Shown: positions 1,247-15,375 of the stretch, one piece after another | How positions within the stretch are numbered: the first letter of the stretch is position 1 | Layout: every line of letters begins with the position of its first letter | Assembly (NCBI RefSeq): GCF_902652985.1 | Contig: NC_047019.1 | Location: forward strand, 20,584,001-20,648,000 | Direction: 5' to 3' | Length of the DNA: 64,000 nucleotides | From: Pecten maximus | Lineage: Eukaryota | The notes under the pieces: model-generated | Database searches by the model: none | Told to the model about the DNA's origin: nothing | Seen by the model: only the letters and a program-made list of their open reading frames with translations | Program-made: the position numbers and the translations under genes

Positions 1247-4200
1247 CTGAAAGTATAAAATGAACACCTGTATAATCATCTATACACATTATTAAACAAT
1301 AACATACTGGAAACATTTGACACAAAATGAAAGTGTAGGTAGTAACTATAGCCATGGCATAATCATCCTAGTGACCTTACAGTGACCTTACAGTACCTTA
1401 AGGTGCAGCCTACAATGAAGGAAATGCTGACTCAAGACCAACTGACCACTATTCCGCCATGTATAAGGACTACTGACCACATTGCTGCAGCACAGATAAG
1501 ATTCCATTGACCAAATTAAACATTATGTACATATCTTGTCTTTAGCAACATGGACAAATTCACAAATTTTCCTGTGATACTTCATTAGTATTTAAAATTG
1601 AAGTGCACAAATATCATTTCATGGAAATCTTTGTTGAAAAAAAAACAATCTGTTGATAAGAAAAATGAAAGTGTAAATAGTTTTATTAACAGTTAAGCTT
1701 GAAATGGTCATGATTAAGACAAAATCAAGTGAACTTAGCCAGCCACTCTTCAGGTTATTTTAGGAAAGTTCAGACTTAGTAGTAATTGAAGTACATTATC
1801 GCCCTTCTGTGCTTAAGTGACAAGGAGTTATTTCCCCTTGATTATTTACCAAATGTAAACAATACAAACTGTGTTTGACTAAGGAGATACCAAAGTGGAT
1901 AAGAGAGATTAATATAATCATTAGTTTTTTTTGTTTTGTTTTGTTTTTGTCGTATTTTTTTGGTCTTGTTTCTAGTGTGTATTTTTGGTATCCTTCTCTC
2001 AGAAAAGAAAATGAAGATTATGGTGCTGAAGTAAGGCAGAGACTGGGGTGAGCCAGTGTGGTGTAGTATTTGGAATCGTCCCAACAGTTGTGTAATCCTG
2101 GAGAAGGGTCGCTGATCTGTACCACATCCTCCAGGGAAACAATAATAACAGTCTTACTATATACCCTGTATGAATGCATGCAGATTTATGTAATGAAAAT
2201 TTTATCCATGAACAAATGTTCAGATCTTCTATTGATTTTGGAATCAGCATCAACAAAGCTAAAGGCAAATATGCTTTTCATGTTTCAAGGAATTTCAAGT
2301 AGTTTTTCTCTCTGTACAAACTATGGATTATTTATGCTGGTTTAGGAAAATGTCTAGCATCTGTCGACAGTTACTGACATGTAACATGGGGATCAAAGTC
2401 TGGGGCAAAAATGGAAGGCCATTAGTCACCTCATCTAGGGCATCTTATCTTTTTTTCACCCTTTTTTTTAAAGTGTAATACAGAAAAAAAGGTTTGTAGT
2501 TCCAGCATGCTTGACACATTTTACTTCTAACAGGAAGATGACAATTTGTTTTAACGGGAGATTTGTACTTTATTTATTTGGAAGTGGGGTATACATGCCA
2601 AGTATGGCACTTTGTCTTTGTGTGTTACATATATAATGGCAAAACATATTAAAGTTGATGAACACTATGGCATGAAGCCACCAATAGGGCTTTGACTATA
2701 TAAGCCATCCTGTCACTGGTTTCTGTGTGTGTGCTACTGACTGTCATCATTGTCCTAAAAACGTGGGAGTAAAATATGGAAACATGTAGCTAGGAGGGTG
2801 GAGGTGACTGGAGATAGGGGGACATTCATAGCTGATTAGAGATGTGAGAACTGATACAGACAAAGGAGCTGGGAGGGTAGGGGGTGGGGAGAATTCTAAG
2901 GATTCCCTGGGGGTGGGGATCAGAGGAGACAAAGCTAGAGGAATCTGTTAGCATCAAGGAGGGACTATGGTATTCATCTTCATACACAATAGGATTCAGA
3001 AAGTTACACAAAGGGTACAACAGGGAAACTTTTCCATAAAGTTACACAAAGTGAGGGGTTGTCTGGGAAGGCATGTAATAACCAAAGTCTTAATGATGGT
3101 CAAAGAAAAGGAAGGAATGCACGTCTGGTTTAAATAAAGCTAACAATGAATTTTTCAAATAGAACAAACACCATTAGAGGGAGGGTATGGAAAGGCATGA
3201 AGGGTTATATAATTATCATATAACAATGAAATTCATAGATAAAGTTTGGATGCACCGAAATGTCTGAGGAGGAACCAGGATTGTCTGAGGTATAGATTGA
3301 CCCGACAATGCCAACAGTACATATCTACCCTAGCTATGTAAACAATTACTGTCAATTACACCGACCTATCTGTGATAACAGCTCCAGCTGACAGCGAAAT
3401 ATATCTGGCAAAACAAAACATCTGTCCCACAATTATCTTAACACCAAAAAAACCTTCTTTCTCTGTAATGGAAATACCTCCCTCACCACTATAAAACATG
3501 CCTGCACTGCTAACATATGTAGTTTATCTATCTGTAAGAACGTGATCTTCAATCGTTTGTAAGCCACTTAAACTCTTCTTCCCAGATAGATTTTTTTTCT
3601 GTAAAATCTGGTACCAGTTTTTGAGAAAGTTAAGGTATTAATGATTGATGCCATCTTTTTTAGAAAGAAGCAAATTATGTTTATTTTATTTCTAGCTTAA
3701 TTGCATATCCAGAAATTCAATTTTCAATATAAACAGAGTTAAATGGGAGACCCCACAGAAGTGAAATGGTTGCGAACATTTATTTTTCTTCAAACATTAT
3801 TTAATATTCATTATTTATTTAATATTTTAATGTTCATGACATCTGATGTTATTAACTGATATGCATGAAACAAACATTTTTACCACATCACAAAATTTAG
3901 ACTTCAAAAGTCCTAGTGGGCACATTTATGATACCTTATAAGGAATTGGAAAAAGACTATATGGCAACCTTGACCTTTGTAACTACTTATCAACTGTGAT
4001 AATACATATTTCTATATATATAAATAGAACTTTTATATTAATATGCAATACACAAATACCCAATTATATGATAAAAACAATAGATAAGCTATCATTAATG
4101 GTACGTTTACATGCTAGCTAGCCCTCCATTGTCAATGTCCTACATGTGTACTATTGACCCTTCCAGGATGAGCATCAGGTTAGTTCCTCAGGTTACCATG

Positions 4201-10589: not shown

Positions 10590-10746
10590 CCTGTTTTCTT
10601 CGCTTTGATTTTGAAGAGTTAAAAGGTCCCCTCCGATTGGTCGTTGTTTGTGAAGCTCTTGTTGTTTGGTCAAAAGCCAGCCAATCAGATCCTGCAGTGT
10701 GTTTACTAGGTGGAGCCATTGTTCTGCGTTACTTTCGAGTCTACCC
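10590..10746 (-). CDS. DMD: Dystrophin coding exon equivalent to human exon 57, 157 nt, phase 2 to 0
   Basis: GRLESNAEQWLHLVNTLQDLIGWLLTKQQELHKQRPIGGDLLTLQNQSEENR carries the PIGGD motif of human exon 57 and has the same length. Acceptor aattccag, donor GG|gtatgt. Confidence 0.96.
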
Positions 10747-11216
10747 CTGGAATTAATAACAGAAAGAATTAAATACATCAAATCAGATAATTTCATATTT
10801 TCCCTGTTGTTACACAAATACTACAACTATGTGCTATAAGCATATATCTACTTTACAAAAGAATATTTTTTTCCAAAACCTTGTGTGAAATGAACATCAA
10901 AGGTTTACACAGTAAACACCATATCAAACAATAAACATGGCTGACAATAGCTAAACTCCTAGGTAAAATGGGTATGTTTCTCCAAAGAAGAATGTTGATT
11001 CACTCACATAATGAAATGCATATTCTGAGATTGTTTTCTCATACCCACTAAAGCAGATCAAAACAGCTGGACTATAGAACCAGGCATCAATAACATTTGC
11101 CCCAGATTGCCGTACTTAATCTGACTGTAAGGCCGAGGATGTCAATATCACGACATCACACCTGATTACCCGTGTTTATTTCTGTGATTGAGAAACCTAG
11201 TTTATGTTTGACTGAC

Positions 11217-11383
11217 CAGTGCACACGTTTTTTCTTGCGTCTCCGGCCGGAGTCTGTATGACCATTGGACACTATTGATCGAACGGCCCATTCCTTACGG
11301 CAACCGACGAGAGCAATGAAGTGGACTGTGCCTGGTCGTGGGATAAACCCATTGGTCCTCCCAACCAGGGCTACGTATCGCAT
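11217..11383 (-). CDS. DMD: Candidate alternative first coding exon (55 aa, phase 2, joining the exon-57 equivalent)
   Basis: ATG with an in-frame TAG three codons upstream. MRYVALVGRTNGFIPRPGTVHFIALVGCRKEWAVRSIVSNGHTDSGRRRKKKRVH(W) ends at donor CTG|gtcagt in phase 2, matching the phase-2 start of the exon at 10746. CpG-rich patch. Confidence 0.6.
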
Positions 11384-11857
11384 TCTGATCTACAGCACTC
11401 GCACAATTCAATTTGTTTATTGTACCCACTTTGGAAAAAGACTTTACTCAGAAAATACTTATATCCAGGAACAGACTATAGTCACAAATCCTGTAATATC
11501 CAGAAATGAATTGTATCCATATAACCAGTTATATTTGGGACTGTATCCACAAAACCACAATTTCATCCATGCACAGGATGTCTCAATTTATCCAATGGAC
11601 TATATTCTGTATCAAAATCCAGGGTTGTTACCTAGTTTAAAGATACAAGATCACTTCGATTAACACTTAATGCACAACAGAAATTCTCCGAAAAGGAAAA
11701 CATAGATTTGACATCCTTGTTGTACATCTAGAACAGGTGAGGGATGTAATTCACAGGCAGCTTGTTCGACTGATCCGACACTCAGTAACCCTTGTAGAAC
11801 ACAATTTGTGACACCTCAATGACGACATTTGGACGTTTATGCATGACACTGCAAAAC

Positions 11858-11865: not shown

Positions 11866-13579
11866 TTTCAATAACACCTTGACTAGAACATGACCATCAA
11901 ACGACTGCTAAGGTACAAGCTGTGAATGTACATACATTTATGATTCATGCCCCATTGCTAATTTACAATATGTAAATTAGGCTGAGATTAGAACATTCCT
12001 GGTCGTTCTGACGACAATACAATCTAAAGTTGTTCAATTAATTATATACACACATTAGGCGAGTTAACTTAGGGAAGACTTGATGTGGGAGAAATTTCAC
12101 CCCGATTAATACATGATCCCTGATACCACACAAGGTCACACCACAACTATCTGGCCTAACCTCCACTCTGACCCCTCTCCATACACACAGTAATTAGTCC
12201 CTATCTTAACAGTATGGGTGTACCCTAATAAGCCTTAAATTAAGCCTACATTTGGAACCCAATTGACTTCAATAGAACATGAGCTGCACAATGTAATTAA
12301 CACTATATATGGCCAAAAAATTGAAATTGAGAATACAAGCCTCTAAAGACTTTTCTATAACCCTCCCTTGTATTCACCTGTCAAGATTACATTAAATGAA
12401 TTCAATAAGAGATCTTTAACATATTTTTTATCAATGTTGTTGCCGCAGGTGCATTCAAGTTATAGATATTTGTAGGACTGCTGAAATTAATCATTAACCA
12501 AATCATACCAGTTTATTAAAGATCTCCTTCTGAGCTGTCAACGCTGTGATGAATTAGTCAATGTTACGCTTTCTCCCGACAAGGGCACCTTTCTAAACGA
12601 TTACACTTCGATATGTTTCCTGTTCTGTATATCAACGACTTAATCAAGTATAAGCACAGTATCTATTTAAATAACACAAAAATATAGTACCATAGATATT
12701 CTAGTAAGACATATACATGAAATTACTGCATTTATCCTTATTACAGAATTATAAGAAATAAGAACCTAAACAAAGTATTTTTTGTTGTAAACATTACCTA
12801 AAATTTCAATTTTTTTCAATGGTTTACACCCTGTGAATAGTCAGACTCATTCTAAATCAGGGATTCCCTGTAGTAGCTGGTGTCTACATCACTAAGCAAC
12901 ATAAGGGAGATTAATCTAATAAACCTTTTAACACATACCTTTATACCATTGTGTTTGTTAGCCTTTGTCACCAGATTTATTGTAATAAAACATTTAAGAA
13001 TCACAAATTCAGAATTACTTTCTAGAATCTTAAACAAAAGTAAAAAAAATATTAGCAATTTTAAGTGGATTCTCATTCTGACAAACAGACCTAGTTAATC
13101 ATCCTGCAGGATACAGAATTTTGACATGTAGAGTACAAATTATGAATCGTTATTTTGAAGTTGGAGCACGTAATGCTTTTGAATTAATTATACAGCCAAC
13201 CTCCCCTAGTGAAAGATAACTACATTCAAATTTTGTTAAATTAGTTTATTGATTAGAAGTGACTCTACTTAAATGAGTTTGGTTTAGATACCTGACTAGG
13301 CTATACATTATAAATATCATTTGTAGATCCATTGGCAAGTCAAATATGGTAGATGGAATTATGACAAATCGATCCAAAATATTCACCATCATGCATTTAT
13401 TTTTTAAAAATATAAGAAATACATGCAATACTATCAAATTTTATGCATAGTGTATGCATTTAAAATCAAGATTATGTATTAATGCAGATAGTGAATTATA
13501 TATGCTTGAATAATATTTGACAAAAAATACATGTTTATTGTTATGTGACTTATAAAATGTATTTGCCAAAATATAGGAG

Positions 13580-14210
13580 CAGTGAGTTATGACCTTGACC
13601 TATAATTAGAAATCTGACTTTGACTTGAAAATTGATCTAATTTATAGTTTGAGAAGGGTAAGTCTTTCTGTAGTGTAAGTTTTTCTGTTCCTGTTTTGTA
13701 CCAAGATTAAATGATGATAAAAGGGAATATATTAAGGAACATGGTTTTATATTATAACAAGTAAAACAATTGACTTTCAAACTCGTCGGCGACAGCCGTA
13801 GCAAAATGCAAAATATTGAAGCAAGAAGATATTTCCAAAACAGAGATTATGAACGATGCATATAATCAATTTTGTAGAAAGCAGAGAGTGTCACCAGATT
13901 ACTTTGTAATCAATTCAGAATTTAGACAAATGAAATGATTTTTAAATAAACTTGGATTTTCAAAAAATGTTACCTTGACCTTGACTGAACAAGCCAGAAA
14001 TTTAAAACTTATCCCAGATATTATGGTCCTGTGTAATTGTGTGAATTTTGACCAAAATCCCTCAAGGAATGAAGCTGCTGGATTGCTGACAAAAAATAGT
14101 AATGATGACCTTGACCCAACAACCTTGAAAGTCAACCTTGTCCAAGATATTACGGTCCTCTTTAATTGTATGAAGTTTGATTAAAATCCACCAAGGAATG
14201 GAGCCACTAG
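13580..14210. mobile_element. Degenerate interspersed element with gaccttga(cc) motifs and an internal duplicated segment
   Basis: Repeated tgaccttgacc motifs and two copies of cc(a)agatatta(t/c)ggtcct...taattgt...aaaatcc...aaggaatg (about 14010-14075 and 14140-14205). Confidence 0.45.
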
Positions 14211-14426
14211 GTGTTACAGTTTCACCAGTAGGGAACTAACCGATGAAGTTTAAAATGTTCAAATATTAAGAGAAGAAAAGAAAGAATGTCCAAAACATGT
14301 CTGTAGAATGTCTGTATAATATGTTATTTGCCTCGACAGTAAAACTAGAACCTTTGAAATATAAATATAAATATTTTGATAGCTGTTGAAATAAAACATT
14401 GCGTAAAGTAAAGCACATATATTCAC

Positions 14427-14596
14427 CTTATTTCCATGGACTTTGTCATAAGGTTGATCCATCGCTGGTTCATCTCCTCCAGACGTCGATGGAGTTTTTG
14501 TGCGTCGGTCGCCACCATGTTGCGAGCCAGTTGATTCCCAGCAGTGTTTAGAGAGTCGTATGTACTCTTATTAGCATCAACTTCTGCCTGAAGGTC
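14427..14596 (-). CDS. DMD: Dystrophin coding exon equivalent to human DMD exon 56 (spectrin repeat), 170 nt, phase 0 to 2
   Basis: Translates to DLQAEVDANKSTYDSLNTAGNQLARNMVATDAQKLHRRLEEMNQRWINLMTKSMEI(R), which resembles human DLQGEIEAH...LQRRLDNMNFKWSELRKKSLNIR. Acceptor tttctgtcattacag, donor AG|gtgaat. Confidence 0.95.
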
Positions 14597-15375
14597 CTGT
14601 AATGACAGAAAGATGTGGGGTCATCATTTTTAGTTCAGTGTGATGCGGTTTTATTTTTTATCTAAAATGTTTTGTTTTTTTTTCGTTTTTCAACTCTCTT
14701 AACCTGCACACACCCTAACTTTTATAGTGCACATATCAAAGAAAAAATGGAGAAAAAAATTAAACAGCTACCAAAGAAGTATTCTGATTACTATATTCAC
14801 ATGTTTTACCTCAACATGACAGAATTACAGCTTGACATATACTACAGTACATACGAAGTGAAACCAGGGGCGATAACTCCCAGTAACAAAGCACAAGAGA
14901 TGCCACTGGGCAAGTTTTAATTCAATTTACTCCTTCAAGTAAATTATACAGAAGCTCTGGTCAAATAGAGTGTGAAGTAATGCATCACAGTTAATGGTCG
15001 ATAGATTGGGAAATAAAATCCTGACCAGTCCACACCTCAAATTGTCAACGCAGCCATAAACCGTCTTACTTTGATGACAGCGTGTGACACTGCCGTCAGC
15101 TACTTCCCATGATGGATCCCTCAGTGGCCACTGTTGGAGCTGGGATACACAGCCTCCGGACCACATGGACAGATAATGGATGGCACCGATGGCTGGTGAT
15201 TGCTTTTTCCTAATAAATGGTCACTACACATACAGTGCATAATGGATCGTTCATGGAGACAAAAATTACTGCCACAGAAATTAAACATGGACCCCTGGAT
15301 TTTGAGTGCTGGAAATACAGATGAATCTTTACAACCTTCTAGTAATGACGCAAACACCAGAAAGTATATGTTATG

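What the first reader, a model, noticed from the sequence alone, without database searches (positions are those of the whole stretch)
11217..11383. Candidate first exon in the intron between exons 56 and 57 with a polybasic NLS-like tract
Seen: a CpG-rich 55-codon ORF (MRYVALVG...HFIALVG...GRRRKKKRVH) ends at CTG|gtcagt in phase 2, so the junction forms TG|G = Trp in frame with exon 57. It has an internal repeat (YVALVG / FIALVG) and RRRKKKR, which looks like a monopartite NLS or membrane-binding polybasic patch. The isoform would begin close to the start of the last two spectrin repeats. I know of no vertebrate DMD promoter in this intron. An alternative reading is a 168-nt phase 2/2 cassette exon (11384-11217) using atcag|AATG, but the pyrimidine tract is poor.
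Basis: partly seen in the sequence, partly recalled or inferred. Interest (0 to 1): 0.7.

Follow-up and report, generated by a model that had tools for sequence, protein, structure and literature searches.

The report
Candidate hidden start exon, scallop dystrophin
Inside an intron of a scallop dystrophin gene lies an exon-like stretch that likely starts a short form of the protein, of about 110 kDa, with a strongly basic tag predicted to steer it to the nucleus or the membrane, but no transcript using it has been seen.

Summary
A single-copy 55-codon ORF (11383-11219, minus strand) ends at CTG|GTCAGT, in phase with the exon-57 homologue. The gene is scallop dystrophin, not vertebrate DMD.

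For a real exon:
- The donor scores like the gene's true donors (top 1.3% of intronic GTs).
- GC rises about 20 nt before the ATG, and the stretch holds the window's most CpG-dense 300 nt.
- RRRKKKR is the only K/R run of 6 or more with CGN codons in 528,000 codons.
- GC-rich ATG-to-donor frames favour the right phase (4 of 15 against 2 of 52; p 0.02, or 0.06 without the candidate).

Against:
- 8 of 8 RNA contig sets join exon 56 straight to 57; none shows 11217>10746.
- 277 of 277 homologues join directly, and the peptide has no homologue.

The internal repeat is weak (p 0.035-0.07). The cassette reading is unlikely, as its acceptor scores below all 53 true ones.

Best reading (0.55): an alternative first coding exon for a 972-aa, two-repeat, Dp116/DRP2-like isoform, one intron downstream of the known promoter. 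Conservation in other scallops could not be tested. The scan earlier noted other internal dystrophin first exons in other genomes, but not this one.

The parts
11217..11383 (-). Coding part of the candidate alternative first exon: ATG, 55 codons plus TG, phase-2 end; A at -3 of the ATG
   Evidence: no RNA junction
11211..11216 (-). Candidate splice donor GTCAGT (CTG|GTCAGT), PWM score 7.99; 5 of the gene's 53 mapped introns begin GTCAGT
11225..11245 (-). Polybasic run RRRKKKR (CGG AGA CGC AAG AAA AAA CGT), predicted monopartite NLS or membrane-binding patch
11360..11377 (-). First copy of weak internal repeat, YVALVG
   Evidence: p 0.035-0.067
11303..11320 (-). Second copy, FIALVG, followed by the only Cys (C28) and RK
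11099..11404 (.). Highest-scoring GC-rich segment of intron 56; begins about 20 nt before the ATG and has a shoulder past the donor
11384..11490 (-). ATG-free leader. A good acceptor (score 8.64) at 11490 would make this a second exon behind a non-coding first exon; the acceptor at 11384 is poor (-3.54)
11399..11656 (-). Low-depth (2.1) unspliced contig of run X1 upstream of the ATG; may be 5' UTR, intronic pre-mRNA or DNA
14427..14596 (-). Dystrophin exon homologous to human exon 56 (spectrin profile positions 45-95 of 105)
10590..10746 (-). Dystrophin exon homologous to human exon 57; the acceptor exon for the candidate

Best explanation
The stretch is likely an alternative first coding exon of scallop dystrophin that would splice to exon 57 and give a predicted 972-residue (111 kDa) isoform, whose basic N-terminal tag is predicted to act as a targeting signal, most likely for nuclear import. 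Shown: the ORF, the in-phase donor, the exon-like composition, single copy, and the exon map. Inferred: (1) a rarely used or tissue-restricted promoter lies upstream in intron 56, either directly 5' of the ATG or before a non-coding exon spliced to 11490; (2) the product lacks the actin-binding end and repeats up to 22, starts about five residues before repeat 23, and keeps two whole spectrin repeats plus WW, EF-hand, ZZ and the C-terminus, so it could bind dystroglycan as Dp116 and DRP2 do; (3) RRRKKKR fits the K-K/R-x-K/R monopartite NLS pattern (recalled) and would bind importin-alpha. If the exon is real, I put nuclear import at about 0.5, membrane binding (basic patch plus possible acylation of C28) at 0.35, and other roles at 0.15.
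For: Donor score 7.99: 19 of 53 true donors score lower in leave-one-out, and 1.3% of 13,679 intronic GTs score as high. GC 0.54 against 0.35 in introns and 0.475 in exons; CpG density 7.2 per 100 nt exceeds all 51 true exons. The GC step begins 20 nt before the ATG. Seven K/R in a row arose in 0 of 5000 Markov ORFs. Of 15 runs of 6 or more K/R in 527,996 six-frame codons it is the only one with CGN codons; the rest are A/G-only runs. ATG-to-donor frames with GC >= 0.5: 4 of 15 sense in-phase, 2 of 24 sense off-phase (both at one locus), 0 of 28 antisense; Fisher p 0.02. The start falls at a repeat boundary. Internal first exons are a known habit of this gene family (PMC1790709, PMC2840664; passages read), and three other mollusc models carry a unique N-terminus on exon 56.
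Against: Contigs of 8 of 8 laid runs (6 studies) join 14427 to 10746 directly; none shows 11217>10746 or covers the ORF. All 277 of 277 fetched proteins with an exon-57 match have exon 56 directly before it, including 11 scallop-family models; 3 later ones also do. No homologue of the peptide: 8 candidates, none at E <= 10; 3 hits, judged spurious, E >= 0.2 by BLASTP. Codon-usage score is only 0.15 per codon, with 10 of 51 true exons lower, and GC does not differ by codon position (0.58/0.51/0.53). Without the candidate the phase enrichment is p 0.06; the GC threshold and the basic-run test were chosen after seeing the sequence. The upstream region is not CpG-rich and has no TATA box within 600 nt. 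The intron is small (3.7 kb), whereas promoter-bearing dystrophin introns are reported to be large (PMC1790709, passage).
Confidence: 0.55

Rival explanations
1. The stretch is a non-coding GC/CpG-rich intronic element (enhancer-like or an old decayed insertion), and the ORF, donor and basic run are chance by-products.
For: No junction in 8 of 8 contig sets; no homologue; flat GC by codon position and a GC shoulder to 11099, past the donor; 31 ATG-to-donor frames of 30 or more codons occur in 144 kb of unmasked intron at a loose donor cut-off; 12 donors scoring >= 6 occur in this intron. A GC-rich patch at 15166 gives frames both in and out of phase.
Against: Single copy; no Rfam match; no unusual folding (z -1.57); the GC step starts at the ATG; the basic run is unique in 528,000 codons; in-phase enrichment.
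Confidence: 0.35
2. It is a 168-nt in-frame cassette exon (11384-11217) inserted between exons 56 and 57 of full-length dystrophin.
For: Phase 2/2 and open; the GC rise begins close to 11384.
Against: Acceptor score -3.54, below all 53 true acceptors (lowest -1.18) and matched by 68% of intronic AGs. 8 of 8 runs skip it. 0 of 277 homologues have an insertion here. [quoted passage not shown]
Confidence: 0.04
3. It is a frame-shifting 'poison' exon, 11490-11217 (274 nt), spliced after exon 56 to send transcripts to nonsense-mediated decay.
For: Good acceptor at 11490 (8.64) and good donor. Such transcripts are unstable, which would explain their absence from contigs.
Against: The X1 contig runs unspliced across 11490. 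One acceptor this good among the roughly two dozen scored AGs upstream is not rare. This reading does not explain the basic run or the GC step at the ATG.
Confidence: 0.06

Closest known systems
Vertebrate Dp116 and G-utrophin; DRP2 (Jin et al. 2007, PMC1790709; passages read)
   Same: Internal first exon giving a short unique N-terminus, two spectrin repeats and the WW-EF-ZZ C-terminus; similar size.
   Different: Their first exon lies in intron 55 and joins exon 56 (phase 0 in this scallop gene), keeping part of repeat 22. The candidate lies in intron 56, joins exon 57 in phase 2, and has a 55-residue basic leader (13 K/R, 2 D/E). Leader sequences were not compared directly.
Sea urchin SuDp98 and Drosophila Dp205 (as described in PMC1790709 and PMC2840664; the primary papers were not read)
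   Same: Invertebrate internal-promoter isoforms; Dp205 has two spectrin repeats and a unique N-terminal domain.
   Different: Both are reported to arise in the intron orthologous to intron 55. SuDp98 uses an internal start codon, and Dp205 is much larger.
Mollusc gene models starting on exon 56: Ruditapes P0159, Dreissena P0206, Bulinus P0002
   Same: Short unique N-terminus in front of the last two repeats in molluscs.
   Different: They join exon 56, not exon 57; their leaders are 12-17 residues and resemble each other, not the candidate. They are gene models, not shown transcripts.
Dp71 nuclear import (PMC13137586; abstract and outline read)
   Same: A short dystrophin that enters the nucleus through importin alpha2/beta1.
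   Different: Dp71 has no spectrin repeats. That its signal lies in the ZZ domain and not in a first-exon tag is recalled, not read here.

Membership tests
Internal-promoter short dystrophin isoforms (general kind) | Lies in an intron of a dystrophin gene on the sense strand | tested here: met
Internal-promoter short dystrophin isoforms (general kind) | ATG and donor in frame with the next shared exon | tested here: met
Internal-promoter short dystrophin isoforms (general kind) | Transcript that splices the exon to the shared exon | tested here: inconclusive
   0 of 8 contig sets show it; contigs drop rare branches, tissues unknown, no raw reads offered
Internal-promoter short dystrophin isoforms (general kind) | Own transcription start site | not testable with these tools
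   No CAGE or raw 5' reads; the motif scan is uninformative
Internal-promoter short dystrophin isoforms (general kind) | First exon conserved in related species | tested here: inconclusive
   No other scallop genome available; protein searches blank; the one orthologous intron fetched (L023) is from a distant animal and shows no match
Dp116/G-utrophin/SuDp98/Dp205 promoter group | First exon in intron 55, spliced to exon 56 | tested here: not met
   The candidate is in intron 56 and fits exon 57
Dp116/G-utrophin/SuDp98/Dp205 promoter group | Two complete spectrin repeats plus WW, EF-hand and ZZ in the product | tested here: met
   Predicted from the exon map and Pfam on homologues; the product itself is unshown
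Classical monopartite NLS | K-K/R-x-K/R basic core (pattern recalled) | tested here: met
   KKKR within RRRKKKR
Classical monopartite NLS | Importin-alpha binding and nuclear accumulation | not testable with these tools
   Needs a binding or localisation assay

The most novel reading that the evidence does not exclude
Scallop dystrophin has a set of unannotated internal first exons that swap targeting tags onto the same C-terminal scaffold: a hydrophobic membrane anchor near mid-gene, a Dp116-like leader in intron 55, and this one in intron 56. This exon would make a nuclear two-repeat dystrophin by adding a dedicated NLS exactly at a spectrin-repeat boundary, from a promoter position not described in any animal.
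Probability: 0.25. Interest if true: 0.6.

Novelty: new variant of a known kind. Interest (0 to 1): 0.36.

Why it matters
The known two-repeat dystrophins trace to one ancient promoter in intron 55. A second promoter one intron further on, with a built-in basic tag, would show that this architecture arose again independently, and that first exons can set where short dystrophins go in the cell. It would bear on the open question of what short dystrophins do in the nucleus. It is directly testable by one RT-PCR or read count. Until a spliced read is seen it remains a good candidate in a non-model mollusc.

Tried and rejected
- Multi-copy repeat: rejected, single hit.
- Structured RNA: no Rfam match at E <= 1 in intron 56; folding z -1.57.
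- Known domain: no Pfam match. A recalled likeness of YVALVGRTNG to GTPase P-loop entry strands lacks the GKS and found no support.
- phmmer hits P0003-P0005 are repeat-rich proteins, judged spurious.
- Internal repeat as coding evidence: weak, and 17 of 70 dystrophin windows score as high. Its synonymous third-position differences are expected once the residues match.
- X1 contig 11399-11656 as 5' UTR evidence: not counted, because similar low-depth intronic contigs lie elsewhere (X2 13711-14017, X8 10940-11092).
- Lack of contig cover over the ORF is not counted by itself. I laid 8 of the 16 holder runs (24 listed).
- Metagenome scans: none confirmed; one distant locus, L023, uninformative.
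- The protein Atlas gave no answer.
- Single-sequence AlphaFold model: pLDDT 60.6, pTM 0.28, not usable.
- The search for a scallop copy of the clam-type exon-56 leader found none with an in-frame ATG.
- Literature searches found no paper on a mollusc short dystrophin or an intron-56 promoter. I saw search listings only, apart from the three papers named; subscription papers (Wang 1998, Neuman 2001 and 2005) and the supplement of PMC1790709 were not read.

Full report
Observation. On the minus strand an ATG at 11383 opens 55 codons (MRYVALVG...GRRRKKKRVH) followed by TG|GTCAGT at 11217. The flanking exons are 14596-14427 and 10746-10590; intron 56 is 3,680 nt and phase 2, so the donor gives Trp in frame with GRLESNAEQW. 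The stretch is single copy in the 918-Mb genome G000 as DNA and as protein.

The gene. The window's exons are dystrophin. Exon 57 is 100% identical to named Pecten, Argopecten and Mizuhopecten proteins and 83% to Mytilus. The named Pecten maximus protein P0132 maps by translated matches to 53 resolved introns over 264 kb (3 junctions were unresolved and left out). The organism is therefore a scallop. Exon numbers are by homology to human DMD and rest on recall plus PMC1790709. Intron 55 is 63.7 kb.

Is it more than chance? Splice models came from the gene's own 53 introns. The donor scores 7.99: 19 of 53 true donors score lower, and 1.3% of 13,679 intronic GTs score as high. The cassette acceptor scores -3.54, below all 53 true acceptors. 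GC is 0.54 against 0.35 in introns and 0.475 in exons, and CpG density exceeds all 51 exons. The tiled 167-nt intronic windows (7 of 757 reach GC 0.50) were not in register with the candidate. 11101-11400 is the top CpG window of the 64 kb. The GC-rich segment runs 11404-11099, starting 20 nt before the ATG but trailing past the donor. RRRKKKR uses four different Arg codons and is the only one of 15 K/R runs of 6 or more in 527,996 codons with CGN codons; 0 of 5000 matched random ORFs had seven in a row. As a control, GC-rich ATG-to-donor frames of 30 or more codons were 4 of 15 in the correct phase and 2 of 52 in wrong phases or antisense: p 0.02, or 0.06 without the candidate. These tests were framed after seeing the sequence. 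The internal repeat is weak (p 0.035-0.067), codon usage is low-normal (10 of 51 exons lower), and GC is flat across codon positions.

RNA. Of 24 runs listed, 16 held part of the region; I laid 8, from 6 studies, all assembled contigs (2 on record as RNA, 6 guessed). All 8 join 14427 to 10746. None shows a joint at 11217. This confirms the ordinary splice and argues against common cassette inclusion. It is weak against a rare first exon, because contigs drop minor branches and the tissues are unknown. Where contigs reached the 5' end of exon 56 and a loose end was shown, it led to exon 55, so no intron-55 first exon was visible either. One low-depth contig covers 11399-11656, but similar intronic contigs occur elsewhere.

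Homologues. The peptide has no credible homologue. Among 314 fetched proteins, 277 match exon 57 and all 277 have exon 56 directly before it, 11 scallop-family models included. This set is biased: one search covered only 1911-5000 residues, clusters list at most 15 members, and the short-protein search scored 23 candidates with 1 hit. Three short models (Bulinus, Ruditapes, Dreissena) carry a related 12-17-residue leader on exon 56 in place of exon 55, which suggests a Dp116-type start in molluscs. The only other intron 56 obtained (L023, a distant animal) keeps the intron position but shows no match. Conservation in other scallops could not be tested.

Mechanism. Pfam places the end of repeat 22 about five residues into exon 57 (profile positions 35-104 of 105 on P0002 residues 7-78, where exon 57 starts at residue 75). 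A transcript starting here would encode 972 residues, 111 kDa: a basic leader (pI 11.9), two whole spectrin repeats, WW, EF-hands, ZZ and the C-terminus. By family knowledge this would bind dystroglycan but not actin. The first Met downstream of the junction is 148 residues in, so a two-repeat product from this intron needs its own ATG, which the candidate supplies with A at -3. The leader most likely carries a monopartite NLS; Dp71 shows that short dystrophins use importin alpha/beta (PMC13137586, abstract). Membrane binding by the basic patch and C28 is the main alternative; Jin et al. speculate on modified cysteines in the leaders of DRP2, Dp116 and G-utrophin (PMC1790709, passage). A good acceptor at 11490 with no ATG before 11383 allows a non-coding exon upstream. 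All steps beyond the DNA anatomy are inferred.

Comparison and novelty. It would work like Dp116, G-utrophin, DRP2, SuDp98 and Dp205 but is not a member of that promoter group, whose first exon lies in intron 55 (PMC1790709, PMC2840664; passages). Searches found no description of an intron-56 promoter or of mollusc short dystrophins; subscription papers and the supplement of PMC1790709 were not seen. The scan's earlier notes hold other internal dystrophin first exons in other genomes and nothing on this stretch. One unreviewed note describes a membrane-anchored half-length isoform in cephalopods. The hydrophobic in-phase candidate found here, before I saw that note, would give 1,869 residues, which fits in size. 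I could not compare sequences, so I treat it as a lead only.

Verdict. Observation confirmed. Real first coding exon 0.55, non-coding element with a chance frame 0.35, poison exon 0.06, cassette 0.04. New variant of a known kind; interest 0.36.

Noticed in passing
window 59307-59179, minus strand (intron 55): 43-codon ATG frame ending CAG|GTAAAC in phase 0, GC 0.54, codon score 0.32, GC- and CpG-rich upstream: a candidate Dp116-type first exon (1,016-residue product). No Pfam match and not in the protein collection.
   Followed up: partly
L019:3685-3575 (G000:C5:20731685-20731575, minus), outside the window: 37-codon hydrophobic ATG frame (P0319) ending AAC|GTAAGA in phase 0 within a 30-kb intron: a candidate transmembrane or signal-anchor first exon for a half-length dystrophin.
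   Followed up: partly
P0159 (Ruditapes), P0206 (Dreissena), P0002 (Bulinus), N-termini: A short related leader ending in an L-R-K/H-F-E-Q/N motif is joined to exon 56 in two clams and a snail; in Bulinus it aligns to the spectrin profile just before exon 56. Suggests a conserved Dp116-like first exon in molluscs.
   Followed up: partly
window about 34983-34933, minus strand: The frame before a strong donor (AGG|GTGAGT, phase 0) resembles the Bulinus leader, but has no in-frame ATG; may be chance or a decayed exon.
   Followed up: partly
window 15166-15026, minus strand: Single-copy GC-rich patch with an ATG frame reaching donors in more than one phase; codon score about 0, probably non-coding.
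   Followed up: partly
L014-L015 region (G000:C5 about 20698000-20699400, minus): ATG frame of at least 459 codons in a 23-kb intron whose start looks like a Tigger/pogo (CENP-B-type) transposase; label from recall, not searched.
   Followed up: no
window 14030-14240 and 12869-12908: Short pieces matched by many unrelated contigs with loose ends: a dispersed repeat (MITE-like) in intron 56.
   Followed up: no
L023:2945-3160 and 3119-4000: In this distant animal the exon-56 acceptor region is tandemly triplicated, and the exon-56 frame stays open for about 230 codons into the intron.
   Followed up: no
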